The notes under the pieces: model-generated | Databases searched by the model: none | Seen by the model: the letters and a program-made list of their open reading frames with translations, nothing else | What the model was told of the DNA's origin: nothing | Assembly (NCBI GenBank): GCA_003134215.1 | Contig: PLAD01000145.1 | Span: 1-41,774, forward strand | Direction: 5' to 3' | Source: Armatimonadota bacterium | GTDB lineage: Bacteria; Armatimonadota; Armatimonadia; Armatimonadales; Capsulimonadaceae | DNA length: 41,774 bases | Shown here: positions 9,805 to 22,449 of the stretch, one piece after another | How the letters are laid out: the number at the start of each line of letters is the position of its first letter | Numbering within the stretch: position 1 is the first letter of the stretch | Program-made: the position numbers and the translations under genes

Positions 9805-12103
9805 GTTGGGACGGACTTCAAAGCAGTGGTTCGGGCCGCATCTCCTGCTGATCGCTTTGCCATGCGTATTATTCTGGCAAGTCTTTACGGGGCATTGCCT
9901 CCTGCCGGCAAACCAGCTCAAAGATGTTTATCCATGGCGAACGGGGAATTCGGGCGACCTTGTTCCCTGGAACGTTTTGCAGTTTGACGGTATTACGCAG
10001 TTTTATCCGTGGCGTCTGCTTGCGGCTGAAACCTGGCTTTCCGGGTATGTGCCGCTTTGGAACCCACACCAATTTTGCGGTACACCTTTCCTTGCCAATT
10101 GTCAGTCGGCGGTGCTCTACCCGCCGAACCTGATATTTTTGTTGATGCCGGTGAAGTTTGCATTCGGCTGGAGCGACCTCCTGCATCTAGCCTTTACCGG
10201 TCTCTGTGCTTACTGGTTTTTTCGAAAGGCAATAAACTGCAGCGCGTGGGCCGGAGTGATCGGGGCTTCATGCTGGCAGCTTTCGACATGGCAAATCAGT
10301 TGGATCGCGCTGCCGACGTTTCTGGATACGTCATCCTGGCTGCCTGCCGCCCTCATTTGTGTCCATGTTCTCGCTCGCCGTCCTACAGCAGTAAACGCTG
10401 CGGGATCAGCAGTTATGCTGGCGATGATGATTCTCGCCGGACACCTGCAGATTGCATTTTACTGTTTGGCGCTGACTTCTGCTTATGCCGTGTTCGAAGT
10501 TATTAAAAATAATGTACCTGCCGAGAAGTGGCTGAAATCGGCAACCGTAGTCGCCGGTCTGACATTCCTGCTGACAGCAGCGCAGATTTTGCCGACCATC
10601 GAACTGTCGAGGCTTTCACATCGGGCAGGCGGAACAGCGGATTCAGCCGGCTACGCTGCCTACACGGCGCTGGCAATGCCGGTTGAGCAGATTGCCGGTT
10701 TGTTCATTCCCGGCTATTTTGGACATCCGCAGGTTGGAACCTATTGGGGTGCAACAAATTATGCAGAAAATGCCGGGTATATCGGCTCTGTCGGCCTTCT
10801 TCTCGCTGTAGTCGGACTTTTCTCACCTATGGAAAAGAAGTCGAAGTGGTTTTTCGTCGCTGTTTCTTGCTTTGCCCTGCTAATTGCCGTCGGCTCGCCT
10901 CTTAACTATCTTTTATACTACGGCATCCCTGGTTTTTCACACACAGGGTCGCCTGCGCGTATTCTGGTTATATGGACCTTCGGCACAGCATACTTGGCCG
11001 CCGCGGGCGTAGATTTACTGTTAACTCGCACCAGAGAAGTATGGCTTGGTGCGGGCTTGTATGTGGCAGCCGCACTCGCTGCCTGTGGGAGCACCGCATT
11101 CGTTCTGCTGGGCAGCAACCCTGGATTCGCAACGAATTTGGCTAACGGAACGAGGGACTATCGGCTCTGGGCGGGGATGATTATCGGAGCCCTCGCTGTC
11201 CACTGGCTTTTGACCCGTAAATTAATATCCCTGCAGACAGCGGCACCGATCCTCTTTTTGTTCGTTGCCGCGGACCTGCTCCTCGCGAACTACGGCTACA
11301 ATCCAACGGTGAGTCCGGTGGAAGTCTATCCAATTACCCCAGTCATCCGCTGGCTGCAGTCGCACGCCGGTGATGACCGAATAATGCCGGTCAATGGCCG
11401 ATGGAGCTTAACTCAGCCGCCGAATGCCGTACTTCCTCCGAATTCCGCCACCGTGTACGGGCTATACGATCTGCAAGGCTATGACTCGCTGCAGACGAAG
11501 CGCTACAAGCAGTTTGCCAATGAACTGGACGGCAATATCGACTCCAGTCCGGTGGAGAACGGGAATATTGTCTTCACTAACGGAGTTGGGTCGCGCGATT
11601 CGGAAGAAGCTGACGCGAAGTATCTAGTGACCCTAGGACCACTGGACGGTTTTGGCGACCCAGTTACAAGTGACGGTCACGTGTTCGTCTATCTTGACGA
11701 AAAGGCGGAGCCGGTTGGCGGTACGCGTGCTTTCAGTCAGACTTCACCAACAAGGATTAAGTTCGGAGTCAATGTACGTTCGTCCAACAATGTGTCAGGT
11801 ATCAATCTATTCTCGAACACGGCTGCCCGAGGGAGTTATGATGCGGCCATTCAATGGTATCCCGGATGGCGCTCATTCGACAGCGGTGGTTCGCCATCTG
11901 ATACATCGGGAGCATCGGTTACTCCAGCAGTCAGTTCGCCGTTCATGCACGTCACGGCCGGAACAAAGCAAGTCGCAGACCTTGCTTTCCAACCCGATTC
12001 GTTTCGCGTGGGCGTGTTTTTGACGCTGCTCGGATTACTATCGACCGTAGGTACTGCGCTCGGGACTCTACTGTCGAAAACTCGTTCAACCTATAGTCCA
12101 TAA
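9797..12103 (+). CDS. YfhO-family polytopic membrane protein (GT-C-like glycosyl transfer)
   Basis: The segment FDGITQFYPWRLLAAETWLSGYVPLWNPHQFCGTPFLANCQSAVLYPPN resembles the YfhO signature. More than 10 TM segments and a large C-terminal extracytoplasmic domain. TTG start overlaps the lnt stop by 8 nt. Confidence 0.65.
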   Translation: MSELGRTSKQWFGPHLLLIALPCVLFWQVFTGHCLLPANQLKDVYPWRTGNSGDLVPWNVLQFDGITQFYPWRLLAAETWLSGYVPLWNPHQFCGTPFLANCQSAVLYPPNLIFLLMPVKFAFGWSDLLHLAFTGLCAYWFFRKAINCSAWAGVIGASCWQLSTWQISWIALPTFLDTSSWLPAALICVHVLARRPTAVNAAGSAVMLAMMILAGHLQIAFYCLALTSAYAVFEVIKNNVPAEKWLKSATVVAGLTFLLTAAQILPTIELSRLSHRAGGTADSAGYAAYTALAMPVEQIAGLFIPGYFGHPQVGTYWGATNYAENAGYIGSVGLLLAVVGLFSPMEKKSKWFFVAVSCFALLIAVGSPLNYLLYYGIPGFSHTGSPARILVIWTFGTAYLAAAGVDLLLTRTREVWLGAGLYVAAALAACGSTAFVLLGSNPGFATNLANGTRDYRLWAGMIIGALAVHWLLTRKLISLQTAAPILFLFVAADLLLANYGYNPTVSPVEVYPITPVIRWLQSHAGDDRIMPVNGRWSLTQPPNAVLPPNSATVYGLYDLQGYDSLQTKRYKQFANELDGNIDSSPVENGNIVFTNGVGSRDSEEADAKYLVTLGPLDGFGDPVTSDGHVFVYLDEKAEPVGGTRAFSQTSPTRIKFGVNVRSSNNVSGINLFSNTAARGSYDAAIQWYPGWRSFDSGGSPSDTSGASVTPAVSSPFMHVTAGTKQVADLAFQPDSFRVGVFLTLLGLLSTVGTALGTLLSKTRSTYSP

Positions 12104-13470
12104 ACCTTCGAGTTGGCGTTCAGTCCGACGCCTCGAAAGCTCACCGTAAATACAGTGCCATTTCCCGAGGCGCCACCCTGCGTAGTAGTGCCGTAAAGTG
12201 CGTTGTTGAAGACGGTCAAGCTAATTGGAATTGCGCCGTTCTCGCCGTTAAAGTCGGCGATGTCTTTGACGGTATTGCCGGCCACCTCAAAGACCTCGCC
12301 TCGCCCATTAGCTCCGCCGAATGGCGTTGTACCGTATAGGTTTCCGTCGAATACGACGAGACTCGCGCCAGGCGCGGTAAAGTTGCCATAAAAGTCGACG
12401 TTTGCATACGGGTCCAATGGATTGATTGAACCTACTTGCGCTCGCGCACCGCCGCTGTCCGAACCGGTGAAGTCGGCAACATCGACAATATTATTACCGG
12501 AAACCTCGTAGACGTCGCCATGACCGGTTCCCCCTCCGAACGATGTGGCCCCGTAGAGGGCACCGTTAAATGGAACCAGGCTCGTCTCAGGAAATTGTCC
12601 GTTTTGTCCGTCGAAGCTGGCGATATCCAATATCCCGATATTCCGATGAAGGACGTGGTCGATCTTTCCGCCGAAGGGATTGGCAACCTCGAATACCACA
12701 CCGTTTCCCGTTTGACCGCCGCCGGTTGCAACGCCATACAGGTGACCCCCGAATACAGTAAGACTTCCCGCTGGTTCCATGCCGTTGCCGCCAATGCCAT
12801 TGTAACTGGTAGTGTCGAACTGAGAGATATCGTTCAAACTGCTGCCTGAGAGAACAAAGACGCTGCTAATCGCTTGAATTGCTCCGCCTGCATTTTCCTC
12901 CTGCCACTCATAACCGTACAAATTCCCGCCGAGTGGGGTAAGGAACTGGTCGATTCCACTACCCCCGCCGGAGAAAGGCGCTACCGCCGATACACTGTTT
13001 CCGGTCACCTCATAGATACATCCAGTATTTTTGGGGCCTCCCGAAGTAGTAGTGCCGTATAGACGATTATTGAAGACGGTCAATCCTCCGGTGGGTTCCA
13101 ACCCGTCATTACCGTTGAACACGGCGACGGGCACAACGCTGTTCCCGACTACTTTGAACACAGCGCCGGCACCGATGGTAGAACTATAAAAACCGCCTCC
13201 ACGGTCCGGCCCATCCGATGCGGTTCCGAATAGGCTGCCATCATAGACGGTTAAACCGGAACACGGCCATGCCATGTTGGAGCCGAAAGAGGCAACATCC
13301 GTAATTACTGCGCTCGGGGTAATTGGCCCTCCCGATGCGCTGGCGCACGGCACTGCACCGAAAACACCCGAGCAAAGCACGCAAGTCGCCAATACTATCT
13401 TTACAAAGTTATAGCCAGGGTCAGAATGGTAAAGCCGCCGGCGAATTAGTAACGGAAAGATGCGGTTCAT
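12091..13470 (-). CDS. Secreted Gloeo_Verruco (GloVer) tandem-repeat protein
   Basis: At least 6 repeats of the LYGTTxxGGxxGxGxVFEV type (RLYGTTTSGGPKNTGCIYEV, HLYGVATGGGQTGNGVVFEV, ALYGATSFGGGTGHGDVYEV, NLYGTTPFGGANGRGEVFEV, ALYGTTTQGGASGNGTVFTV). N-terminal hydrophobic signal. Confidence 0.7.
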   Translation of the reverse strand: MNRIFPLLIRRRLYHSDPGYNFVKIVLATCVLCSGVFGAVPCASASGGPITPSAVITDVASFGSNMAWPCSGLTVYDGSLFGTASDGPDRGGGFYSSTIGAGAVFKVVGNSVVPVAVFNGNDGLEPTGGLTVFNNRLYGTTTSGGPKNTGCIYEVTGNSVSAVAPFSGGGSGIDQFLTPLGGNLYGYEWQEENAGGAIQAISSVFVLSGSSLNDISQFDTTSYNGIGGNGMEPAGSLTVFGGHLYGVATGGGQTGNGVVFEVANPFGGKIDHVLHRNIGILDIASFDGQNGQFPETSLVPFNGALYGATSFGGGTGHGDVYEVSGNNIVDVADFTGSDSGGARAQVGSINPLDPYANVDFYGNFTAPGASLVVFDGNLYGTTPFGGANGRGEVFEVAGNTVKDIADFNGENGAIPISLTVFNNALYGTTTQGGASGNGTVFTVSFRGVGLNANSKVYGL

Positions 13471-13525: not shown

Positions 13526-14446
13526 TCATGTTGCCGGCTTGACTATATCTTTGATATCGAACTTGCTGCCGGTGACGACATCGCAGTAAGAAGCGTACCT
13601 CTCCGTACGAACTACTCTCACTCGGCCGACGATAGTCGGGTCACCCTGAGAAATTGTGGCTCCGGTGACTGGATCAAGGATCGGCGTGCCGGGCTGATAG
13701 ATGTCGAACAATTCACCGACGACTACTCCTGCAATGTAGCCCGCATTAATGACGACTCGTCACGTTGTGTGATCCTGCGCCGCTACAAAGGCGTTCCAGG
13801 GTTCACGTGAGAGACGAGCCGAGGCCTTTGTCACCGCACTGTCGAGCGCCGTGTCGACCGCCTTGCCTGCTGGAGTAGCTAAGAATTGGTCATCAGTGAA
13901 CGCAACTCCTACAAGTGAGTCCTCGTCGTGATTTGACTTGATATGAATCTTACCGGTCGATGTTTCAAGGTCGAGGAACTCGTCGGTCTTTGCATCGGAG
14001 ATTTGCACCGTGATAGTCGCCTTAGCCTCGCCAAAGTCCCCACCTAGCCGTACGTCGCCAATATTAAGGCCCTTCTTTGACACTTTAGTCTCGGAGTAAT
14101 CTATATTTACTGGGGTCAGTACAAAGTCGGCATCCGAACGAGTTTTATCGGCATCGGTATCGTCCTGGACCACCACGATAAATGAACCCGAGTGCTGCAG
14201 CTTCTCGACAAATTGATCTTGTATCGCCGCAGCAACTTCCGGCGGGAGATTCCACTGATTAGTTTTAATCTGGTCCCATTTGCCCTGATTGACAATGATC
14301 CGGTACTTTAGTTTCGGCGTCGCAACTGCCTGTGCCGATGCCGTGGCCGAAGAAAAAACGGCCGTCGCGCTGATCGCTGTAAGGAATATGGCGGCGGCGC
14401 AAAGCTGAGACTTCATAGAGGCCAGGCAAATCTGCCGTGAGTTCAT
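13526..14446 (-). pseudogene. CsgG-family periplasmic protein interrupted by an in-frame TGA (13760-13762); alternatively two ORFs or a readthrough gene
   Basis: ORFs 13760..14446 and 13526..13711 are in the same frame. The first has a signal peptide and a CsgG-like domain. Reading through the TGA gives ...QDHTT*RVVINAGYIAGVVVGELFDIYQPGTPILDPVTG..., the beta-domain that normally ends such proteins. The downstream piece has only a TTG start and no well-spaced SD or signal peptide. Confidence 0.5.
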
Positions 14447-14555
14447 TCAAGAGTCCTTTCAAGTAGATATGTTGATAATGATTGTACGCTAAGTTCCCAG
14501 CAATCACGCCTGTTCAGGACACTATTATATGATTAACAGCCTGCTGCAGCCTATT

Positions 14556-14858
14556 TTATTTGGAACGAGGATTGTGGTTTCGGCTCATGCTTCTGATCAA
14601 GAGGATGAGACCTACAATTAAGGCCGCATCAAGTGGTGCTGCCAAAGCTACACCTATTTCGATGGCCTGCCTTCGATTCGGTAAATCCGCCCGAGTGATG
14701 TTTATCAGTGCCTGAATTATCCAGGCATTAGCTGCGAAGATCATCGAGCCGCCGATCCAGCCGGTCTCGATCGGTGAAATCCACTCTCGCTTTGCAGCGA
14801 AAGAGAGCAGGGCGACGGCGCAGATGATCCAGATAAGCCTTTGCTCGAGAATTACCAT
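14556..14858 (-). CDS. Small membrane protein (100 aa, about 3 TM), unknown function
   Basis: ATG lies 12 nt downstream of the nicotinate PRTase stop. Hydrophobic segments are present. No family recognised. Confidence 0.4.
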   Translation of the reverse strand: MVILEQRLIWIICAVALLSFAAKREWISPIETGWIGGSMIFAANAWIIQALINITRADLPNRRQAIEIGVALAAPLDAALIVGLILLIRSMSRNHNPRSK

Positions 14859-14870
14859 ACGAGCAGAGTC

Positions 14871-16229
14871 CTAAAGGGAGTTAAGATCGACTTGCTCCAG
14901 GCCGGGATTGACGAGAGGCTGCCGGCCGGTTTTTGCCAGGTCGCGCCAATTGCCGCTAACCTTGACACGGACTACGTCGGCGGTGAAGTCGTTGTTGGTC
15001 CCGATCTCGGCAGCGTTGCTGAAGAGATAAGATCCGACGCCGTAGACATCTACCGGCACTTGCTGGTCTTCGAATGCACGTATCTTAGCAGGAGTCAGGC
15101 CGCCGGTGACCGAAATCTTTATGGACTTACAGTACTCAGATGCCCGCTTCATCCACTCTGCTGGAAGATCCCACTGCCTATATGCGTTCGTCAGCGCCGA
15201 GCGGACTTTATGCACCAATTGTGGGTTTACGCCGTGTTCATCCGGGCTGTCGGACGGATAGAGGCTGTGGTCGACAAGCGTGCTCGATGTATCCAATCTC
15301 ACTCCGTACAACATATATTTGAGCGCTTCGTCGTTGTTCCCGCCCTCAATGAAACGTCGGTATTCCGTAAATAAGGCCTGCGCCGTTCTACAGGAATCGG
15401 TGACGCAGTCATTATTGAAGTCGACCAGGGCAATGCGCGGTATGCTGCGCGGAAGGACTCTCGCGAACGATCGCATGGCTTCGGCCGTGTCTCCAAAGAA
15501 ACAGGCGATGGCAGCGTGAGCGACAGTGCCGCCTCCGGCACCGCCCCACCAGTCGCCTTGTTCATCCGTGCTGACGGTAGAGACGATCTTCTTGCCGAAG
15601 GCATTGTTAAAGGCAAGCACGGCCGTATGGTAGGCGTATCCATCGGCTGCCTGTACTTCGTGAGCATCGAAACGGGCGGGAAAGAAGAGGACATCTTTAC
15701 CGCGAGCCGCCCGCAGCACTTCGTAGACATTGGTGGCGACACGAGTGCCACGGGTCAATGCACCCAGGGTAGGAGTTTCCAGCAGCGCGAAATCACGGTA
15801 GCGGCCGCGCACCTTGAGTATAGGAACAGCGCTGTCTTGTGAGCCCTCGTAGGTCGCGACGAATCCGTCGTGCACCGCTTCGACCTCCAGTTGATCGTAA
15901 GTGGAGTTCCACACTCCGTCACTGTCGAAAAAGCCCGTACACAACTTCAATATTGCGAGCACTTTGTCGACCCCGACGACAATGCTGAACGGCGTTCGAC
16001 GGGTAAACCATTGCATCTCTACGAAGAGATCGCCAACATTTACCGATGAGACATCGTCTGCATTGAGTAATGGGTGCGAGCCTGCAAAGACGTAATCCTC
16101 TTCGGAGAGACCGGCAAGAAGGCGAACGATATTCGTAAAGTATTTGTCGGAGTACCAGCCTTCGCGCATTCTAGCGGCGTCAAGTTTGAACGTCGCGGCA
16201 GGCAGCCGTTTGCCGTCAAAAATACTCAT
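14871..16229 (-). CDS. pncB: Nicotinate phosphoribosyltransferase family protein (type II PRTase)
   Basis: N-terminus ...REGWYSDKYFTNIVRLL... and overall length fit NAPRTase-type enzymes. It lies in an operon with nadE and shares an ATGA start/stop overlap with the upstream gene. Confidence 0.75.
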   Translation of the reverse strand: MSIFDGKRLPAATFKLDAARMREGWYSDKYFTNIVRLLAGLSEEDYVFAGSHPLLNADDVSSVNVGDLFVEMQWFTRRTPFSIVVGVDKVLAILKLCTGFFDSDGVWNSTYDQLEVEAVHDGFVATYEGSQDSAVPILKVRGRYRDFALLETPTLGALTRGTRVATNVYEVLRAARGKDVLFFPARFDAHEVQAADGYAYHTAVLAFNNAFGKKIVSTVSTDEQGDWWGGAGGGTVAHAAIACFFGDTAEAMRSFARVLPRSIPRIALVDFNNDCVTDSCRTAQALFTEYRRFIEGGNNDEALKYMLYGVRLDTSSTLVDHSLYPSDSPDEHGVNPQLVHKVRSALTNAYRQWDLPAEWMKRASEYCKSIKISVTGGLTPAKIRAFEDQQVPVDVYGVGSYLFSNAAEIGTNNDFTADVVRVKVSGNWRDLAKTGRQPLVNPGLEQVDLNSL

Positions 16230-17572
16230 ATTTCTCGGATGAGGCCGGTGATTCGGCCAACGACGCGCACTGTCGCGGAGAGCGGGGTTGTTGGAAACTT
16301 AGGATCGTCGGACACCAACATTTTGCTTTCGCCGTCAATGACAAGGCGACGAACTGTTTCATCTTTACCGTCGATCACCACAGCGACGAGAGATTGATCG
16401 ACTGGAGCCAGCGCTTCGTTGACGAATACCAGGTCGCCGGGCAAAACTCCACTGGCGTCCATGCTGCTCTCAGTAACTCGGAGAAGGTAGTCGGCGCCGG
16501 CTGACGGGAGTGCAATATCTTTCGCATCATCTGTGCCGCTTATAGGAAGGCGGGCACAGTCTACTTCGAAATGCAACAGGGGTTCCTTGACTCTCGCCTT
16601 CACCGCCGGCGTCTCTGGCGGGGCGTAGTCGTAGTCCCCTACATAAACATAGAAGTCGCTGGCCCTGGCGTTGATCTGGCCGACTCTCGCGGTGCTGATC
16701 GCCTGTTTCGTTTGGTTCAGTTTCGCGCTTAAATCGTCGCAAGCAGCAAGTATGAACGCCTCCGGAGTAGCCGGCGTCTTCGGTGAACCAAACTCCCCTT
16801 TACCGTGATGTGAAAGGATCAGGTGCATGAGTAGTTTTTTGAGCAGGGGAGGGAAGTCGGGTCCGATCGCACTTAAGATAGTTTGTGTTCCGAGGACAAT
16901 ATGGCCGATCAACGCTCCGTCTGCCGTGTATTCTCCATGTTTGATCCCATGCTCGAGCTCTTCGAGTTTGCCGATATCGTGCAGGAGTGCGCAGGTGACG
17001 ACCAGGTCTCGGTTGACGGTCGGGAATACCTCGCACATCTTGTCGCACATCTCGGCGACCTCGGTTGTATGCTCAATCAGCCCGCCTCTGTGCGAATGAT
17101 GCATCGTTTTAGCCGCTACAGCATCTCGAAACCGTCGCAGCATGTCGGTCGGTGTACCAAATGCGGTCCTCAATAACTGCTTAAGGTGCGAATTCTTTAT
17201 CGATTTCACCAGATGGATAAACCGATCGTAATGGACCTGGTGGTCGTCGGGCAACGGCGCAAGGAAGTTCTTAGGGTCGATATCCGATTCGGCGACCGGC
17301 TTGATCGACGAGACCGAGACCTGTCCGGAGTACTGGCCATTATCCACCTGACCGCTCATATAGAAGAAAGTGTTGGAAAGCAGGACCTGCTGAAGGTCTG
17401 GGGTGATGTTCCAAAGCTTGGCCGGAGCGCAACCAGTTCTGTCTTCGATGTTGAACATCGCGTAAGGATTGCCGGCTTTTCCCTGTTTGACTTCAGGGTT
17501 GCGCTCGACGAATAGAGAGTGTGAGAAGGAAGAACCCGGTGTCAGTTCCTCGATATATTTGCCTTTTTGCAT
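16226..17572 (-). CDS. YhaM-like OB-fold + HD-domain 3-prime-5-prime exonuclease fused to a C-terminal LexA/UmuD-type S24 domain
   Basis: Residues 1-290 align by eye along their length with B. subtilis YhaM: an OB fold, then HH...GGLIEHT, ALLHDIGK, LILSHHGKGEFGSPKTP and DDLSAKLN. Residues about 338-448 read YLLRVTESSMDASGVLPGDLVFV...VAVVIDGKDETVRRLV...VRVVGRITGLIR, which is the LexA C-terminal domain pattern. Confidence 0.8.
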   Translation of the reverse strand: MQKGKYIEELTPGSSFSHSLFVERNPEVKQGKAGNPYAMFNIEDRTGCAPAKLWNITPDLQQVLLSNTFFYMSGQVDNGQYSGQVSVSSIKPVAESDIDPKNFLAPLPDDHQVHYDRFIHLVKSIKNSHLKQLLRTAFGTPTDMLRRFRDAVAAKTMHHSHRGGLIEHTTEVAEMCDKMCEVFPTVNRDLVVTCALLHDIGKLEELEHGIKHGEYTADGALIGHIVLGTQTILSAIGPDFPPLLKKLLMHLILSHHGKGEFGSPKTPATPEAFILAACDDLSAKLNQTKQAISTARVGQINARASDFYVYVGDYDYAPPETPAVKARVKEPLLHFEVDCARLPISGTDDAKDIALPSAGADYLLRVTESSMDASGVLPGDLVFVNEALAPVDQSLVAVVIDGKDETVRRLVIDGESKMLVSDDPKFPTTPLSATVRVVGRITGLIREI

Positions 17573-17592
17573 GGGTACTTCCTTGTACTATC

Positions 17593-18468
17593 TCAGTAGT
17601 CGACCGGACGGAGGTAGAAGTCGTTAATGGCTGTACTGGACAGCATCGCGACTGTAGGCAGGTGGCGCTTCCAATGGGTGCCGTCAAGTCTCTTTTTGAC
17701 TATATCGACATGTTCGCGCTCGAAGCCCATTTCAATCATTCTCTCCGGCGTGTAGCCCCGGACGAGGTAGCTCAGCACTTTGTCGGCAAGTTCGTATTTA
17801 ATGCCGAAGTCCGATTCGTCGGTCTGACCCACCACAAGGTCTGCAGAAGCAGGCTTATCCACAATTACTGTTGGAACACCAATGTATTTCGAAAGCTTCC
17901 ATACCTGTGTCTTGTAAAGGTCCCCGAGAGGGTTTATTGGCGGAGAATCGTCGGCGTGCCATGTAAAGTAGCCGAATAGCCGCTCAGTTTTATTTCCCGT
18001 CCCGATTGGAAGTGCTCTGTATTTTTCGGATTGGTCGAATAAAACGATCATTCGCATACGTGCCATAACATTGCCGCGCCGCCGACCGTCCGCTTCGGGC
18101 GCAAACGACTTCAGGTAACCGTCGACCGCTTCTGTAATTTCAACTGTATGAAGATTGACGCCTAAGTCGTCTGCAACAAGCTTTGCGTGCTCGAGGGACT
18201 CACACGAAGATGAACGATATGGCATTCTGATACAGTGAACGTTCTCCGGCCCGATGGCGCGAGCACAAAGATAGGCCACAAGAGCAGAATCCACACCGCC
18301 CGAGAGCCCCACCACCGCCTTGGAGAATCCCCGTCGGCGGACGAGTTCATCGCGGATGAAGTCTATCAACCACTCGGACACGAGCTGTTCGTTAATCGCT
18401 AGGGGCGACTCGCTGTTGGGATCGATTTTAGGTTGTTCGATTACATCGTACATACGTCTGTCTTTCAC
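17593..18468 (-). CDS. nadE: NAD+ synthetase (synthetase / ATP-pyrophosphatase subunit)
   Basis: P-loop SGGxDS motif (VVGLSGGVDSALVAYL) and NadE-like remainder. GTG start overlaps the CN-hydrolase stop (GTGA). Confidence 0.9.
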   Translation of the reverse strand: MKDRRMYDVIEQPKIDPNSESPLAINEQLVSEWLIDFIRDELVRRRGFSKAVVGLSGGVDSALVAYLCARAIGPENVHCIRMPYRSSSCESLEHAKLVADDLGVNLHTVEITEAVDGYLKSFAPEADGRRRGNVMARMRMIVLFDQSEKYRALPIGTGNKTERLFGYFTWHADDSPPINPLGDLYKTQVWKLSKYIGVPTVIVDKPASADLVVGQTDESDFGIKYELADKVLSYLVRGYTPERMIEMGFEREHVDIVKKRLDGTHWKRHLPTVAMLSSTAINDFYLRPVDY

Positions 18469-19370
18469 ACACGCCCTGTGCGTTCAATTTGATCTATCTC
18501 GCGACGTACATCCGCGAGATTTGCCTCCAGGTCGGCAAGCATCGGCGACGTTGCGCGAGCGACGCTGACATCATCGAGGTCTACTTCAGCATGGAGCAGT
18601 GCTTCTTTGCCGACCGGTCCTTCCAATCGAGTTACGGCGAAAGGATCGACGACAAGCGAGCAGCCAACAAATCCTTTGCCGCCTTCAAACCCGACCAATC
18701 CGGTTTGAATGACCCAAATGTTATGTTCGGCCGCAATATTGTAGACAAGCTGTTTCCACTGTGAGACATTGCCAATCAGCACTTCGCCAAAGCCGCGCGC
18801 AGGTGAAGCGCTTACGATATAGAGAATTTGCGCCCCCTTAAGTGCGGCGATCATCGGCGTGATGGAATGCCAGGCGTCCTCACAAATTAACACGGCTGCT
18901 TTCACCTGGCCGAAGCGAGTAGTGAACGAATCGATCGTCCTTCCGCGGCTGACAAATCGTTTTTCGTCGAATACGCCGTAGGTAGGTAAAAAGAACTTGC
19001 GGTGGACATGAACGATCTTCGGCGTGTCAACGCCCTCTCCGGTCCCGAGTGTTGCATAGAGGCAGGAGTTATAATATTTACGCTCCCATTGCTCGTAGAA
19101 GCCGACGACAATATCTAATGACCGGTCCGGGCCGTGTTCCAGATACTGTGCGTTAAGTTCAGCAAAGATTTCTTCTTTTGTTCGCGCAACCTCGCGTACT
19201 CCGCCTTCAAGGAAATAACCCGACATTGCCGTTTCCGGCAGTGTCAGCACATCCACATCGATGGCAGATTCTCGAATTTGGGCGAAGATCTTTCCGATCT
19301 GTGACAAATTTGCCCGGTAATCGCCCTTGTTCGGCTTGATTTGCGCAGCCAACACCGACAACTTCAGCAT
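18465..19370 (-). CDS. Carbon-nitrogen hydrolase (glutaminase partner of NadE, encoded separately)
   Basis: Nitrilase-superfamily E-K-C context: LTLPETAMSGY, HVHRKFFLPTYGVFDE, AVLICEDAWH. It sits immediately upstream of nadE, in the domain order of fused Gln-dependent NAD synthetases. Confidence 0.85.
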   Translation of the reverse strand: MLKLSVLAAQIKPNKGDYRANLSQIGKIFAQIRESAIDVDVLTLPETAMSGYFLEGGVREVARTKEEIFAELNAQYLEHGPDRSLDIVVGFYEQWERKYYNSCLYATLGTGEGVDTPKIVHVHRKFFLPTYGVFDEKRFVSRGRTIDSFTTRFGQVKAAVLICEDAWHSITPMIAALKGAQILYIVSASPARGFGEVLIGNVSQWKQLVYNIAAEHNIWVIQTGLVGFEGGKGFVGCSLVVDPFAVTRLEGPVGKEALLHAEVDLDDVSVARATSPMLADLEANLADVRREIDQIERTGRV

Positions 19371-19411
19371 GCCTTATTGTACCCGCGCACGAATCCGGCT
19401 GGCTCACAATT

Positions 19412-21220
19412 TCAGCCACCCGTATTGGTCCGTTGGGAGATCACCTCGTATTGACCGTCTGGAGAGCGATACTTGAGTGTCAAACCTTTGCCAAGATCAC
19501 TTTGGATAATCGCACTTTCATACGGCTGATCACTGGTCATGTTCGGGTCTAAAATCAAGTCTCCGATACCTTTCGTTCTCATCCAAGCCTCGACCTGCAG
19601 TCGAGTACTCAGGCTGATCGATGCGTCGCTTAAGTCGACAAAAACCCGTTTCGACATTGTGGCAGCGCCCGGGTCGTAGCCTGCGACAGCGCCTGTCGAC
19701 CGGCTGTTTTCGATATAGACCGACGCAGCCGCCTCGTCGGAATTTCCTGGACCGGGAGGAGCCGAGAAATCAATTGGCCAGTGTACTAGTATCGCAAGGG
19801 CGAAGAGGAGGACAAATTGCGTTACTCTCGCAATAAACCGGAATCGAGTACTCGAAAGTCGCCTCTCATTCGATAGAAAAGACACTGCTACCGGCAGTGC
19901 GGCTGCGAATGTTCCGTAAAGAAGGTCAGTCTGCTGTAACACGAAACCGCCTAATACGAATGGAAAGTTCACAAAGGCGATTATAAAAGCCTGAACAACC
20001 CTCGACTTCCTCAACGTCACGCTCAGACCAACCGCCGAAAGGGCAGTTAGTGTGACGATCGGCAGCAAAAAGTAGCCTTCCCGGAAGAACGTGAAGAAAT
20101 AACAGCATAGGTGCAGGTGCCAAAGTGCCAGTACTATTGCCTGGTCGAAATTCTTCTGATCGATCAGGATGACCATGCCGCACAGAGCGGCACCAAGCAG
20201 GAGCGTGGTAAATCCATACGACCAGTCGCTGTCATTGACAAACTCTAGAACCGTCTCCGGCAGATACCGGATCAGGTGCACCAACCTGATTAAATAACTA
20301 TGAGGATGGTGGACCACAGCATCGACAATTGACCAATGGTTCGATGCTCCAACACCGTAGGTTCGATTCGACATGACGAAACCCTCATCGTAGGGGTCCC
20401 AGTCGCTGTGATGAATTGGGTTGAAGTAAGCGATGCCCTCACCCTGTTGAAAGGCTTCGTATGTGCGCTCTTGAAGTCCAAGTTGTACGGAACCTGTTTC
20501 AATCTTTGTGAGTAGGAGATACCCGCCGGTCACCAGCACAAATGGCAGCAAGGCCGCGACGGTAATTTTGGCGAGTCTCGTCAGCTTTCGGTCGAGCGTT
20601 ATGTCGACACCGCTGTTGGCCCATCGATGTTCGATGATGAGCACAGCAATCAGGAAGCAAAGCTCCATCACCACCCCGTCGTCGCGTGTCATTGCTGCAA
20701 GCGCAAGGATTAACGAGACGGCAGCTATATGCACAAGCCGGCGGCTCTGCAGGTAATTCAAGGCGAACCCCAATGCAATTCCTGAAAGACAGGCAAAAAG
20801 TGCATCGGTTGAGTTATTGAGAAGAGTATCGTAAAACGGAAAGCCCAGCAGCAGTATAGCGGCAAATACAGCTCCTGATCTGGGAAGGAGACGGTTTGAT
20901 ACAAAATAGCCGACCGCCCATAGCAGCGTGAAAATAAGGAAATGTCCCAGACGAGCCTCCTGCACAAGCCAAACGGGGGAATGCGCGAACGGAGTGAAGA
21001 GGCACCGGTAAAAAAGGGAAATTAACGGGTTCCAAGCGAACGCAGGCAGCTGAATATGGCCCAGAGTTCGGCCGGAATTGATATATCCGACCTCGTCCCA
21101 ATCGATGTTCTCCAGCGTAATGTAAAAAGTATGGAGATTGAGAAATGCTGAAATGACGTAGCAGGAAAACCAAGCGCAAATATAACGCACGCGCTCAGTT
21201 CGCGCCGGAGGAGTTCTCAT
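19412..21220 (-). CDS. Polytopic membrane protein, GT-C (ArnT/PMT)-like glycosyltransferase candidate
   Basis: More than 10 TM segments. The first loop has an acidic motif WDEVGYINSG, reminiscent of the GT-C DE/DD loop. There is a C-terminal soluble domain. Family assignment is tentative. Confidence 0.45.
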   Translation of the reverse strand: MRTPPARTERVRYICAWFSCYVISAFLNLHTFYITLENIDWDEVGYINSGRTLGHIQLPAFAWNPLISLFYRCLFTPFAHSPVWLVQEARLGHFLIFTLLWAVGYFVSNRLLPRSGAVFAAILLLGFPFYDTLLNNSTDALFACLSGIALGFALNYLQSRRLVHIAAVSLILALAAMTRDDGVVMELCFLIAVLIIEHRWANSGVDITLDRKLTRLAKITVAALLPFVLVTGGYLLLTKIETGSVQLGLQERTYEAFQQGEGIAYFNPIHHSDWDPYDEGFVMSNRTYGVGASNHWSIVDAVVHHPHSYLIRLVHLIRYLPETVLEFVNDSDWSYGFTTLLLGAALCGMVILIDQKNFDQAIVLALWHLHLCCYFFTFFREGYFLLPIVTLTALSAVGLSVTLRKSRVVQAFIIAFVNFPFVLGGFVLQQTDLLYGTFAAALPVAVSFLSNERRLSSTRFRFIARVTQFVLLFALAILVHWPIDFSAPPGPGNSDEAAASVYIENSRSTGAVAGYDPGAATMSKRVFVDLSDASISLSTRLQVEAWMRTKGIGDLILDPNMTSDQPYESAIIQSDLGKGLTLKYRSPDGQYEVISQRTNTGG

Positions 21221-21773
21221 CTAAGGTTTCTGCATTCTCCAGATTTCTTTTCAGCTCTTCCACCACAGAAAGCGGGTCGGTATTCTGCGCCATTAACTCC
21301 GCTTCAGGGTCGCGTCGATTGCGCACGTTAGGCAGGTCCTTGCGCAGCTCTTCGACGAGGACAATTAGTTTGGTGATCTTTTGCTCCGCAAGCAGATTCA
21401 CTTGAATGTCTAAATGAGACCGCTGTTCGGCCAGAGCCGCCTGACGATTTTGCGTGAACAGCACCATCGTTGTGACAATCAACGCCGACAAACTGACTGC
21501 GCCTTGCAGCCATTCAAATGGGGGACGATCGAACTGCGGCCACCTGTGCGCCGGGGCCGCTCCGTTGTAAACGATCCAACTGGCGACTGCTCCGAGCATC
21601 AGATAGAGAAATAGCGGCCGGCCGATGTTCCTTGTAAAGGCTTCGATGATCCGTTGATGGCGGGGGGTGGAACGGACTGAGCTCGCATGCAGCGCGACGA
21701 TAGCTTCAATGTTTGTTGCGACCTGTTCATTCGACAGACCGGAGCTATTTGCGGTCGATTGACTGTTAGTCAC
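21195..21773 (-). CDS. DUF1003-family membrane protein
   Basis: The segment FDRPPFEWLQGAVSLSALIVTTMVLFTQNRQAALAEQRSHLDIQVNLLAEQKI matches the DUF1003 pattern (fD.yPf..L....S......I...QNRq). Confidence 0.6.
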   Translation of the reverse strand: MTNSQSTANSSGLSNEQVATNIEAIVALHASSVRSTPRHQRIIEAFTRNIGRPLFLYLMLGAVASWIVYNGAAPAHRWPQFDRPPFEWLQGAVSLSALIVTTMVLFTQNRQAALAEQRSHLDIQVNLLAEQKITKLIVLVEELRKDLPNVRNRRDPEAELMAQNTDPLSVVEELKRNLENAETLDENSSGAN

Positions 21774-21777
21774 CGGG

Positions 21778-22449
21778 TCAGAGTGTTTCAGCTGCCGTTC
21801 GTATTTCGGCGAGAGCTGCTGCAGGCCCTGAAATGTGTGAGAATACTGCGCTCCCGGCGATCAAAACATCTGCGCCTGCTTTTACTACGAACGGGGCCGT
21901 TTTCGCGCTGATGCCTCCATCGACGCCGATTTCGAAATCGAGGCCGTCGCGCTCTTCAAGCCGTCGCAACGCGATAATCTTTGGAATCATGCTGTGCAAG
22001 AACGACTGACCGCCGAATCCCGGGTTGACTGTCATAATCAGAACCCTGTCTACCAACGGCAGCACCCATTCAATCAACTCAATGGGTGTTCCCGGGTTTA
22101 AAGCGACACCGGCTTTCATTCCGGCGTCATGAATTTGACCGAGTACCCGATGAATATGGTAAGTTGCCTCAGGATGAATTGTGAGCATGTCGCTTCCGGC
22201 TTCGGCAAATTCTTCAACAACTGATTCGGGGCGTTCGATCATAAGGTGAACATCAAACTTGGCATCGCTCCGCTTGCGAAGCGCTCGGACTAGATCTGGC
22301 CCGAAAGTTAAATTTGGAACATAGTGATTGTCCATAATATCAAAGTGCAGATATTCAGCGCCTGCGTCACGTACTTTGACCGCATCGTCTGCAAATGCGC
22401 CAAAGTCAGCAGCAAGCAGGGATGGGCTGAGTTTGACAGGCTTTGACAT
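21778..22449 (-). CDS. rpe: Ribulose-phosphate 3-epimerase
   Basis: PSLLAADF, HFDIMDNHYVPNLTFGP, MTVNPGFGGQSF and VDGGI motifs. Confidence 0.93.
   Translation of the reverse strand: MSKPVKLSPSLLAADFGAFADDAVKVRDAGAEYLHFDIMDNHYVPNLTFGPDLVRALRKRSDAKFDVHLMIERPESVVEEFAEAGSDMLTIHPEATYHIHRVLGQIHDAGMKAGVALNPGTPIELIEWVLPLVDRVLIMTVNPGFGGQSFLHSMIPKIIALRRLEERDGLDFEIGVDGGISAKTAPFVVKAGADVLIAGSAVFSHISGPAAALAEIRTAAETL

What the first reader, a model, noticed from the sequence alone, without database searches (positions are those of the whole stretch)
16226..17572. YhaM-type OB/HD exonuclease fused to a LexA/UmuD-like S24 domain with a Ser-Arg rather than Ser-Lys dyad, embedded in NAD salvage genes
Seen in the sequence:
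- Residues 1-290 are collinear with the 3-prime-5-prime exonuclease YhaM (OB fold plus HD domain with HH, LLHDIGK, SHHGKGEFGSPK and DDLSAK).
- The C-terminal 110 residues follow the LexA/UmuD cleavage-domain pattern: YLLRVTESSMDASGVLPGDLVFV...VAVVIDGKDETVRRLV...VVGRITGLIR.
- The nucleophile Ser is retained (S370, 16465-16463).
- The general-base Lys of the TVKRL motif is Arg (R408, 16351-16349).
- An Ala-Gly pair (SAGAD) sits only about 12 residues upstream of the Ser. In LexA and UmuD the cleavage site is about 35 residues upstream.

Established knowledge: S24 domains mediate RecA*-stimulated self-cleavage and dimerisation. As I recall, B. subtilis yhaM belongs to a LexA-controlled operon.

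Inference: this fusion could place a nuclease under post-translational SOS-type control or dimerisation control.

The gene is wedged by start/stop overlap between nadE and the nicotinate PRTase gene. I cannot explain that pairing.
Basis: partly seen in the sequence, partly recalled or inferred. Interest (0 to 1): 0.7.

Follow-up and report, generated by a model that had tools for sequence, protein, structure and literature searches.

The report
YhaM nuclease with dead LexA-type domain
This gene really does fuse a YhaM-type 3'-end nuclease to a LexA-like self-cleavage domain, but in this lineage that domain has lost its cut site and catalytic lysine, whereas about 44 related, apparently undescribed fusions keep a complete LexA-style self-cleavage kit.

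Summary
The ORF at 16226-17572 (-) is real. It encodes an OB+HD nuclease of the YhaM family (residues 1-~320), a disordered linker (322-337) and a Peptidase_S24/LexA-fold domain (338-448). Profile and fold searches confirm both halves.

The fusion is not an artefact. It recurs in about 46 clusters at 50% identity. The six genome-derived fusion loci are all titled Armatimonadota, one on a complete chromosome.

About 44 of these fusions carry the full LexA catalytic set: an (V/I)AAG cleavage loop, G[D/E]SM serine and V-K-R lysine. Only the window's small clade differs:
- a ~15-residue deletion removes the cleavage loop;
- Lys is Arg in 9 of 9 aligned members;
- the Ser is lost in 3 of 9;
- the S24 domain evolves much faster than the HD domain.

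So this protein is most likely an active nuclease carrying a catalytically dead, LexA-derived domain, probably kept for dimerisation. SOS-type self-cleavage is plausible for its relatives, not for it.

The link to a conserved NaPRTase gene is real (three gene arrangements, two clades) but not universal, and remains unexplained.

The parts
16226..17572 (-). Whole fusion ORF, 448 aa: YhaM-type OB+HD nuclease, linker and degenerate S24 domain
   Evidence: ORF list. Pfam HD plus Peptidase_S24. NCBIfam YhaM, UmuD and LexA. AF2 model with pLDDT 90.4. The N-terminus MxKGxxxxxLxPG is shared with all homologues.
17294..17530 (-). OB-fold, residues ~15-93
   Evidence: Five-strand beta barrel in the AF2 model. 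Weak Pfam tRNA_anti-codon hit at 32-92. Foldseek hits to SSB/RPA OB folds. The Trp (W54) and Tyr (Y81) align with the same residues in B. subtilis YhaM.
16694..17242 (-). HD phosphohydrolase domain, residues ~111-293, with all metal-ligand motifs
   Evidence: Pfam HD at 166-283, E 1.7e-13. H158, H159, H168, H198, D199, K202, H224, H250, H255 and D279 are invariant in 52 homologues. Foldseek top hit is YhaM 9h3f with TM 0.83.
16562..16609 (-). Disordered interdomain linker, residues 322-337
   Evidence: pLDDT below 50 for 322-337. It is the least conserved region, with 0.32 identity within the clade.
16229..16561 (-). LexA/UmuD-fold (Peptidase_S24) domain, residues 338-448, predicted non-catalytic
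   Evidence: Pfam PF00717 above gathering. Foldseek hits to LexA CTD, UmuD' and lambda CI CTD. Identity within the clade is 0.45 against 0.74 for HD.
16532..16537 (-). G346/T347 junction, where ~15 residues holding the LexA-type (V/I)AAG cleavage loop are missing relative to canonical fusions and LexA
   Evidence: Alignments A1, A3 and the LexA-anchored alignment.
16463..16465 (-). Ser370 (AGC), aligned with the LexA Ser119 nucleophile
   Evidence: Direct reading and the LexA-anchored alignment. It is replaced by Gly, Gln or Glu in P0008, P0009 and P0010.
16349..16351 (-). Arg408 (CGT), aligned with the LexA Lys156 general base
   Evidence: Direct reading. It is Arg in 9 of 9 aligned clade members and Lys in 45 of 46 other fusion representatives.
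14871..16229 (-). NaPRTase-family gene (452 aa), translationally coupled to the fusion by an ATGA overlap
   Evidence: NCBIfam PRK07188, E 7e-61 over nearly the full length but below the equivalog cut-off. PDB hits 2i14 and 1ytd. More than 7,800 conserved homologues, which sources name nicotinate phosphoribosyltransferase. Found next to the fusion in both clades.
17593..18468 (-). NAD+ synthase (NadE synthetase subunit), 20 nt upstream of the fusion
   Evidence: Pfam NAD_synthase, E 8e-69. NCBIfam PRK13980 at 275 bits, above its cut-off of 255.
18465..19370 (-). CN_hydrolase (glutaminase partner of NadE), first gene of the operon
   Evidence: Pfam CN_hydrolase, E 1e-20. Matches the N-terminal half of the fused NadE model PRK13981. 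Overlaps nadE by 4 nt.
19376..19384 (-). GGGTACAAT, a -10-like box 5 nt upstream of the operon's first ATG (probable promoter, near-leaderless transcript)
   Evidence: It is the only conserved block in the upstream alignment of window, L001 and L004. The promoter role is inferred.
14556..14858 (-). Small hydrophobic protein (100 aa, no family), last gene of the conserved block
   Evidence: Conserved downstream of the NaPRTase gene in L001 and L004. A 30%-identical homologue lies directly downstream of the canonical fusion in L009.

Best explanation
The gene encodes an active YhaM-family, metal-dependent 3'-to-5' exonuclease. An OB fold feeds single-stranded DNA or RNA 3' ends to an HD active site, and by homology the enzyme probably forms a hexameric ring. 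Its C-terminus carries a LexA-derived S24 domain that has become a pseudo-protease.

Shown here:
- Both domains are present and fold confidently.
- Every HD metal ligand is conserved.
- The fusion belongs to a family of about 46 clusters at 50% identity, and about 44 of them keep the full LexA self-cleavage apparatus (AAG loop, Ser, Lys).
- The window's clade is a monophyletic offshoot that deleted the cleavage loop, fixed Arg for Lys, loses the Ser in some members, and shows relaxed constraint on the S24 domain.

Inferred:
- The ancestral fusion was a nuclease that cuts itself between the nuclease and S24 parts in response to RecA filaments or DNA damage.
- In the window's lineage this switch was lost. 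The S24 fold is retained as a non-catalytic dimerisation or assembly module, since LexA, UmuD' and lambda-CI C-domains all dimerise. It could pair subunits across the two-fold axes of a YhaM-type trimer-of-dimers ring.

The gene is expressed constitutively as the third cistron of a tight glutaminase-nadE-fusion-NaPRTase-small membrane protein operon, from a promoter directly in front of the first gene.
For: Domains:
- Pfam HD and Peptidase_S24, both above gathering.
- NCBIfam YhaM, E 2e-44.
- PDB YhaM, E about 1e-35, and LexA, E 5e-5.
- AF2 pLDDT 90.4 with a disordered linker at 322-337.
- Foldseek: YhaM 9h3f first, then LexA, UmuD' and CI C-terminal domains.

Active nuclease: the HD ligands are invariant in 52 homologues.

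Recurrence:
- 22 clusters at 90% identity.
- About 46 representatives at 50% identity.
- Genome-derived loci, including the chromosome OZ241338.

Canonical versus degenerate: see the motif tables.

Monophyly: the window clade is recovered in 100 of 100 bootstraps and is nested among canonical fusions.

Relaxed constraint: S24/HD identity is 0.45/0.74 in the window clade against 0.51/0.51 in the canonical clade.

Operon:
- Overlaps or gaps of 20 nt or less between cistrons.
- The same block in L001-L005.
- A conserved GGGTACAAT box.

YhaM biochemistry and the hexamer: PMC12107432.
Against: - Ser370 is retained in 6 of 9 clade members and Arg408 is strictly conserved, so some residual or altered chemistry cannot be excluded.
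- Dimerisation by the S24 domain and hexamer formation are inferred from homologues.
- Deep nodes of the tree are unsupported. 'Ancestral catalytic fusion followed by degeneration' is the parsimonious reading, not a proven one.
- The NCBIfam YhaM score (152 bits) is far below the equivalog cut-off (460), so substrate specificity may differ from B. subtilis YhaM.
- No self-cleavage has been demonstrated for any member of the family.
Confidence: 0.68

Rival explanations
1. The S24 domain of this protein is still a working protease. It would use Ser370 with Arg408 as the base and cut at the nearby Ala358-Gly359, or cut another protein in trans. The nuclease would then remain under SOS-type proteolytic control.
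For: - Ser370 is present, and Arg408 is strictly conserved in the clade.
- An Ala-Gly exists 11-12 residues upstream.
- The S24 fold is confidently predicted.
Against: - The Ala-Gly occurs in only 3 of 9 clade members (window, P0009, P0010). It sits in the strand that aligns with LexA 'NADFLLRV', not in the cleavage loop.
- The true cleavage loop is deleted.
- The Ser is replaced in 3 of 9 members.
- Canonical relatives that have 'GGADYLL' at the same place still carry a separate AAG loop.
- From memory, not retrievable in the library: LexA Lys156 substitutions, including Arg, abolish cleavage at physiological pH, because Arg stays protonated.
Confidence: 0.05
2. The nuclease is a functional component of an NAD/ADP-ribose-linked nucleic-acid pathway together with the NaPRTase, NadE and (in relatives) Macro-domain genes. 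Examples would be trimming 3' ends that carry ADP-ribose or NAD-derived adducts, or coupling DNA-end processing to the NAD+ supply for the NAD-dependent ligase. On this reading the operon position reflects function, not just co-expression.
For: - The fusion lies next to the same conserved NaPRTase gene in three different arrangements across two clades that share only about 35% identity: nadE|fusion|NaPRT (window, L001-5), fusion|Macro|NaPRT (L012), and fusion|3 genes|Macro|Macro|NaPRT (L011, L013).
- The fusion and the NaPRTase gene share an ATGA translational coupling.
- S24-less YhaM loci in the same phylum lack the NaPRTase gene within their flanks.
Against: - Six of 12 fusion loci, and both second-tier loci, have no NaPRTase, Macro or nadE gene nearby.
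- Macro|NaPRT is a housekeeping pair that also occurs without the fusion, so part of the adjacency may be inherited synteny.
- There is no match to known defence or counter-defence systems, and no biochemical precedent for YhaM acting on ADP-ribosylated substrates.
Confidence: 0.15
3. The fusion is an assembly or gene-calling artefact, and is really two separate genes (yhaM and a lexA/umuD-like gene).
For: None found.
Against: - The reading frame is uninterrupted across the junction in the window.
- The same architecture appears on dozens of independent contigs from JGI, ENA, Logan and NCBI, including a 4.1-Mb chromosome.
- There is no N-terminal DNA-binding domain between the two parts.
- The junction region (YVGDxG hairpin) is conserved across the family.
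Confidence: 0.01
4. The protein is primarily a LexA-like regulator of the NAD operon rather than a nuclease. The OB/HD part would bind nucleic acid or a nucleotide ligand and the S24 part would provide repressor-style dimerisation.
For: - S24 domains are typical repressor dimerisation modules.
- S. aureus YhaM was first described as a DNA-binding factor; the PDB name of 9o7t is 'Cmp-binding-factor 1'.
- The gene sits inside the operon it would regulate.
Against: - All HD catalytic ligands are invariant, which argues for catalysis.
- There is no HTH domain.
- No conserved palindrome or operator lies upstream of the operon; only a -10 box is conserved.
- No riboswitch or RNA element was found.
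Confidence: 0.05

Closest known systems
YhaM / Cbf1 3'-5' exonuclease (B. subtilis, S. aureus; PDB 9h3f, 9o7t)
   Same: - The N-terminal OB fold and HD domain are collinear over residues 5-303, at about 32% identity, with all HD motifs and the aligned OB aromatic residues.
- The expected activity is Mn-dependent 3'-exonuclease on ssDNA or RNA, with a D3 hexamer (PMC12107432).
   Different: - It carries about 130 extra C-terminal residues (linker plus S24 domain) that the characterised YhaM proteins (313-321 aa) lack.
- It scores far below the NCBIfam equivalog cut-off (152 against 460 bits).
- It comes from a different lineage, inferred to be Armatimonadota-related, and sits in a different gene context (an NAD operon rather than yhaONM).
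LexA / UmuD / lambda CI C-terminal domain (MEROPS family S24)
   Same: - Same fold (Pfam above gathering; Foldseek probability 1.0, TM 0.65-0.79 normalised to the target).
- The motifs GADYLLRV, xSM, GDLVFV, TVxRL and the C-terminal GxxxGLIR are all in register.
   Different: - It is attached to an enzyme rather than to a winged-helix or HTH DNA-binding domain.
- The Ala-Gly cleavage loop is deleted.
- The general-base Lys is Arg.
- The Ser is not conserved in the clade.
Canonical YhaM-S24 fusions of Armatimonadota and other bacteria (for example P0016, P0042, and the homologue on Capsulimonadaceae chromosome OZ241338); apparently undescribed
   Same: - Same three-part architecture and the same family.
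- The window clade nests among them in the nuclease tree.
- Several share the neighbouring NaPRTase gene.
   Different: - They keep the (V/I)AAG loop, G[D/E]SM and the Lys (about 44 of 46 representatives), so they are predicted to self-cleave.
- They are 470-540 aa long.
- They are mostly standalone genes or lie near restriction/McrBC, recA or Macro genes.
UmuD, the best-known S24 protein that is not a repressor
   Same: It is the precedent for RecA*-stimulated S24 self-cleavage acting as a post-translational switch on a DNA-metabolism activity (UmuD to UmuD' activates Pol V). This is established knowledge. UmuD models hit the domain.
   Different: UmuD is a small stand-alone subunit in which cleavage removes an N-terminal tail. 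Here the S24 domain is C-terminal to a complete enzyme, and in the window protein it cannot cleave.
Non-cleavable LexA paralogues, for example Synechocystis LexA (from memory, not checked here)
   Same: An S24 domain that has lost cleavage determinants but is kept as a structural or dimerisation module.
   Different: Those are still transcription factors with an N-terminal DNA-binding domain. The comparison is an analogy only.

Membership tests
YhaM family (OB + HD 3'-5' exonuclease; NCBIfam PRK13480) | N-terminal OB fold | tested here: met
   AF2 beta-barrel at residues 15-93. Foldseek SSB/RPA hits. Weak Pfam tRNA_anti-codon hit. Collinear alignment to YhaM from residue 6.
YhaM family (OB + HD 3'-5' exonuclease; NCBIfam PRK13480) | HD domain with complete metal-binding motifs (H...HD...H...H...D) | tested here: met
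   Pfam HD, E 1.7e-13. H158/H159, H198-D199, H224, H250, H255 and D279 are invariant in 52 homologues.
YhaM family (OB + HD 3'-5' exonuclease; NCBIfam PRK13480) | Score above the curated equivalog cut-off (same function as B. subtilis YhaM) | tested here: not met
   151.8 bits against a cut-off of 460. This makes it a family member, not an equivalog.
YhaM family (OB + HD 3'-5' exonuclease; NCBIfam PRK13480) | Mn-dependent 3'-exonuclease activity on ssDNA/RNA and a hexameric ring | not testable with these tools
   Known for B. subtilis YhaM (PMC12107432). Here it is only inferred from 32% identity and TM 0.83 to 9h3f.
Peptidase S24 (LexA/UmuD self-cleaving domain) | S24 beta-fold | tested here: met
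   Pfam PF00717 at 45.4 bits against a gathering cut-off of 23.3. Foldseek hits to LexA, UmuD' and CI C-terminal domains at probability 1.00.
Peptidase S24 (LexA/UmuD self-cleaving domain) | Nucleophile Ser in the G-x-S-M motif | tested here: inconclusive
   It is present in the window protein (S370) but replaced in 3 of 9 clade members, so it is not under family-like constraint.
Peptidase S24 (LexA/UmuD self-cleaving domain) | General-base Lys in the V-K-R-L motif | tested here: not met
   R408 (CGT). Arg in 9 of 9 clade members against Lys in 45 of 46 other fusion representatives and in LexA.
Peptidase S24 (LexA/UmuD self-cleaving domain) | Ala-Gly (or Cys-Gly) scissile bond in a strand-loop-strand about 35 residues upstream of the Ser | tested here: not met
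   A deletion of about 15 residues after LPISG346 removes the loop. The A358-G359 pair aligns with LexA Pro-Asn of 'KPNADF' and is not conserved.
Peptidase S24 (LexA/UmuD self-cleaving domain) | RecA*-stimulated or alkaline self-cleavage | not testable with these tools
   This needs biochemistry. The three failed sequence determinants predict it to be absent.
LexA regulon member (SOS-controlled gene) | LexA operator upstream of the gene or operon | tested here: inconclusive
   No match to the Cheo-box, E. coli, alphaproteobacterial or cyanobacterial consensus, and no conserved palindrome upstream. The LexA motif of this lineage is unknown.
Nicotinate phosphoribosyltransferase (neighbour gene, PRK07188 type) | Full-length match to a curated NaPRTase model above its cut-off | tested here: not met
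   206 bits against a cut-off of 378, though E is 7e-61 over nearly the whole model. Sources name close homologues NaPRTase. The activity has not been tested.
Known anti-phage defence or counter-defence systems (PADLOC, PHROGs, NARP-type) | Match of the fusion or its partners to a system-specific model | tested here: not met
   Only generic Cas3-HD and UmuD/repressor domain hits, and nothing for the NaPRTase-like or small protein. No fusion was found on viral contigs.

The most novel reading that the evidence does not exclude
The YhaM-S24 family would be a previously unrecognised class of SOS effector: a 3'-end nuclease switched on or off directly by RecA-filament-stimulated self-cleavage. That would make it an enzyme regulated the way UmuD is.

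The window's lineage would have converted this switch into a permanently uncleavable form. Its dead S24 domain would act as a docking or dimerisation module, and the gene would have been wired into the NAD salvage operon because the nuclease works together with the NAD/ADP-ribose enzymes (NaPRTase, NadE, and Macro in relatives) on damaged or ADP-ribose-modified nucleic-acid ends.
Probability: 0.12. Interest if true: 0.8.

Novelty: new variant of a known kind. Interest (0 to 1): 0.52.

Why it matters
LexA-type S24 domains are known almost only as the switch of repressors (LexA, phage CI) and of UmuD. A complete nuclease carrying an intact LexA self-cleavage module would be a direct, transcription-independent output of RecA activation. 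It is found in about 44 sequence clusters across at least Armatimonadota, and probably other phyla. It is also easy to test, because the predicted cut site, Ser and Lys are obvious.

The window's protein is the natural 'uncleavable' control for that family: loop deleted, Lys to Arg. It shows how a self-cleaving module decays into a structural domain.

YhaM itself was recently tied to ssDNA processing in transformation and is LexA-regulated in Bacillus. The fusion therefore suggests that the link between YhaM and the DNA-damage response is older and wider than Firmicutes.

The recurrent adjacency to NaPRTase, Macro and nadE genes hints at a connection between NAD metabolism and 3'-end processing that nobody has examined.

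Tried and rejected
- **Metagenome scan for more fusion loci.** The first attempt with A3 failed because no stretch was conserved enough. The second, with A4, returned 80 loci, all ordinary LexA-type genes without an HD domain.
- **Viral contigs.** 25 YhaM-like hits, none extending past residue ~311, so the fusion is not phage-borne in IMG/VR.
- **PADLOC and PHROGs.** Only generic domain hits, so I rejected a known defence or counter-defence system, including a NARP/Namat-like role for the NaPRTase-like gene.
- **LexA-box search.** Four published consensus types and a perfect-palindrome scan upstream of the operon and of nine canonical fusions found nothing shared.
- **Rfam scan of 14000-22000 at E up to 1.** No NAD riboswitch or other element.
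- **Promoter/terminator scan inside the operon.** Nothing above the shuffle expectation.
- **Organism name.** Exact-sequence look-ups found the proteins but no names. The Armatimonadota assignment of the window is therefore inferred, not shown.
- **Literature.** Nothing on a YhaM-S24 or HD-S24 fusion, and the classic LexA K156R work is not in the library.
- **Model coordinates.** They are not exposed, so the Ser370-Arg408 distance could not be measured.
- **Assembly artefact.** Considered and rejected; see the rival explanations.

Full report

Yes. The ORF at 16226..17572 on the minus strand encodes 448 aa.
- Pfam finds an HD domain (166-283, E 1.7e-13) and Peptidase_S24 (356-441, E 7.5e-12; 45.4 bits against a gathering score of 23.3).
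- NCBIfam's YhaM model aligns residues 5-303 (E 2e-44). The UmuD and LexA models align 355-448.
- Against solved structures, the best sequence hits are YhaM/Cbf1 (9o7t, 9h3f; E about 1e-35, residues 6-303), followed by LexA C-terminal domains.
- Reading the DNA directly:
  - S370 is AGC at 16465-16463, immediately before Met.
  - R408 is CGT at 16351-16349 in T-V-R-R-L, at least two substitutions away from any Lys codon.
  - The ATGA stop/start overlap with the next gene is at 16229-16226.
- One small correction: nadE ends 20 nt upstream of the fusion, so it does not overlap it.

**2. Structure**

An AlphaFold2 model built on a 52-sequence alignment is confident (mean pLDDT 90.4). It shows an OB barrel (15-93), a helical HD domain (about 111-293), a short hairpin, a disordered linker (322-337) and a beta-rich C-terminal domain (338-448).

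Foldseek against the PDB puts B. subtilis YhaM (9h3f) first, with TM 0.83 normalised to the target. About 38 LexA, UmuD' and lambda-CI C-terminal domains follow at probability 1.00.

**3. Is the fusion an artefact?**

No.
- The word-indexed protein search found 22 clusters at 90% identity that carry both PF01966 and PF00717.
- An exhaustive HMMER search of 1.84 billion representatives found about 41 full-length and 5 fragmentary fusion representatives at 50% identity.
- They lie on independent contigs from JGI, ENA, Logan and NCBI.
- In the GTDB genome collection, the six loci with a full-length match are all titled Armatimonadota (Capsulimonadaceae, Armatimonadaceae, Chthonomonadales, Armatimonadales). 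One of them is a complete 4.1-Mb chromosome.
- No viral contig carries the fusion.

**4. The key finding: two kinds of fusion**

I aligned the C-termini of all representatives to E. coli LexA.

Canonical fusions (about 44 of 46 representatives):
- They have an (V/I)AAG motif aligned with the LexA Ala84-Gly85 cleavage site.
- They have G[D/E]SM aligned with Ser119.
- They have x-V-K-R-x aligned with Lys156.
- These proteins carry everything LexA needs to cut itself.

The window's clade (the window, P0001-P0010, represented by P0005 at 50% identity) is the exception:
- About 15 residues, including the whole RVAAGxPxxSxEE loop, are missing after L-P-I-S-G346.
- Lys is Arg in all 9 aligned members.
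- The Ser is replaced by Gly, Gln or Glu in three of them (P0008, P0009, P0010).

Other clade members have GG, KG, NG or RG there, and canonical fusions with the same strand still have their own AAG loop. It is therefore not a cleavage site.

Domain-wise identity points the same way. In canonical fusions the S24 domain is as conserved as the HD domain (0.51 and 0.51). In the window clade it is much less conserved (0.45 against 0.74 for HD and 0.68 for OB). Constraint on the S24 domain has relaxed, yet the fold has been kept intact in every member.

In a neighbour-joining tree of the nuclease portion:
- The window clade is monophyletic (100 of 100 bootstraps).
- It sits among canonical fusions.
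- A few S24-less lineages are interleaved.
- Deep nodes are unsupported.

The most economical reading is an ancestral catalytic fusion, with degeneration in this lineage and loss in some others.

**5. What it most likely does**

The nuclease part has every HD metal ligand invariant across 52 homologues. It also conserves the Trp and Tyr of the OB fold that align with B. subtilis YhaM.

B. subtilis YhaM is a 3'-exonuclease acting on ssDNA and RNA. It forms a D3 hexamer (a trimer of dimers), is LexA-regulated, and is needed for transformation (PMC12107432).

I therefore take the window protein to be an active 3'-end exonuclease. Its S24 domain fails three of the four sequence determinants of self-cleavage, so I regard it as a pseudo-protease. 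The domain is probably retained because S24 domains dimerise, and three such dimers could bridge the two-fold axes of a YhaM-type ring. This last step is inference, because no multimer modelling or coordinates were available.

For the canonical relatives, RecA-stimulated self-cleavage that separates the nuclease from the S24 domain is the obvious prediction. Whether that activates, releases or destabilises the nuclease cannot be decided here.

**6. The NAD context**

The window is ordinary chromosome (aroC, aroK, aroB, PASTA kinase, rpe, DUF1003) and is syntenic with L001.

The fusion is the third cistron of a tight block: CN_hydrolase (glutaminase) | NadE | fusion | NaPRTase-family protein | 100-aa hydrophobic protein. 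Neighbouring cistrons overlap or lie 20 nt or less apart. The same block occurs in relatives whose fusion protein is 63-67% identical. By matching contig lengths, it probably also occurs in P0004, P0005 and P0010.

The only conserved upstream element is GGGTACAAT, 5-10 nt before the first start codon. This suggests a near-leaderless operon transcript. I found no LexA-box consensus, no conserved palindrome and no Rfam element.

The NaPRTase-like protein belongs to a very large, highly conserved ~450-aa family that sources name nicotinate phosphoribosyltransferase. It is distantly related to the archaeal NaPRTase structures 2i14 and 1ytd.

Its orthologue (64-67% identical) also lies downstream of canonical fusions that share only about 35% identity with the window protein:
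- fusion | Macro | NaPRTase in L012;
- fusion | 3 genes | Macro | Macro | NaPRTase in L011 and L013.

However, several observations weaken the link:
- Six other fusion loci and two second-tier loci lack it.
- Macro|NaPRTase is a common pair without the fusion.
- S24-less YhaM loci in the fetched set never have the NaPRTase gene nearby.

So the pairing is conserved and probably reflects at least co-regulation, but it is not a defining feature of the family. I cannot explain it mechanistically. The ideas considered were NAD supply for the NAD-dependent ligase, and processing of ADP-ribose-modified ends together with Macro proteins. Both are speculative.

**7. Comparison with what is known**

The protein works like YhaM and is a family member, but not an equivalog: 152 bits against the cut-off of 460. 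Its C-domain has the S24 fold but fails the catalytic membership tests (no scissile loop, no Lys).

No paper in the searchable library describes a YhaM-S24 or HD-S24 fusion. PADLOC and PHROGs hold no matching system.

I file it as a new variant of known kinds. The window protein is the degenerate member of an apparently undescribed family, and it is the canonical members that deserve experiments.

**8. Verdict**

SOS-type proteolytic control is plausible for the family but not for this protein. A dimerisation role is plausible but untested.
- Interest is moderate (0.52). The specific gene is a decayed version, but it led to a coherent family of nucleases with an intact LexA-type switch, and to an unexplained, recurrent link to NAD salvage genes.

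Noticed in passing
window 19376-19384 (-); also L001 ~6185-6195 and L004 ~6180-6190: GGGTACAAT lies 5-10 nt upstream of the start codon of the first operon gene (CN_hydrolase). It is the only conserved block in three diverged upstream regions, so it is probably a -10 element giving a leaderless or near-leaderless mRNA. A similar GGGTAAAAT lies about 75 nt upstream of the canonical fusions in L011 and L013.
   Followed up: partly
window 17593-19370 (-): The glutamine-dependent NAD synthetase is split into two overlapping ORFs, CN_hydrolase/glutaminase (18465-19370) and the NadE synthetase (17593-18468). The single-polypeptide model PRK13981 matches each ORF by one half.
   Followed up: partly
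window 14556-14858 (-); L009 9454-9843: A 100-aa hydrophobic protein with no family match is conserved as the last gene of the NAD/fusion block. A 30%-identical homologue lies directly downstream of a canonical fusion in L009, a locus with no NaPRTase gene. It may be a second recurring partner of the fusion.
   Followed up: partly
L011 3300-4423; L012 1526-2092; L013 10942-12122; L092 7402-8076; L094 5456-6004: Macro-domain genes are recurrently adjacent to the ~450-aa NaPRTase gene, often overlapping it. This holds in named Armatimonadota loci and in the unnamed metagenome locus L094, with or without the fusion nearby. It suggests an ADP-ribose/NAD recycling pair.
   Followed up: partly
L122 6764-7837: recA lies two genes downstream of a second-tier canonical YhaM-S24 fusion (P0272), in convergent orientation. 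This is a single observation.
   Followed up: no
L006 3981-7906; L008 1542-5304; L011 2283-3272: Several canonical fusions sit beside restriction or defence-type genes: an Eco57I-type methyltransferase and an HI1420-type antitoxin (L006), McrBC (L008), and an HSDR_N-like endonuclease (L011). These may be variable-island locations.
   Followed up: no
window 19412-21220 (-): A 602-aa PMT_2-type membrane glycosyltransferase lies between DUF1003 and the NAD operon. In the syntenic locus L001, DUF1003 directly precedes the operon, so this looks like a lineage-specific insertion.
   Followed up: no
window 12091-13470 (-) and 13760-14446 (-): A 459-aa Gly-rich repeat protein with a signal-peptide-like N-terminus and no Pfam hit, and a 228-aa protein whose L001/L004 counterparts carry CsgG hits, lie downstream of the operon.
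   Followed up: no
L123-L202: Ordinary LexA-type genes from many metagenomes share the motifs GGADYLLRV and GDSMxGAGI with the canonical fusion S24 domain, at up to 48% identity over about 120 aa. This is consistent with the fusion's S24 domain deriving from a bona fide LexA rather than from UmuD or a phage repressor.
   Followed up: partly
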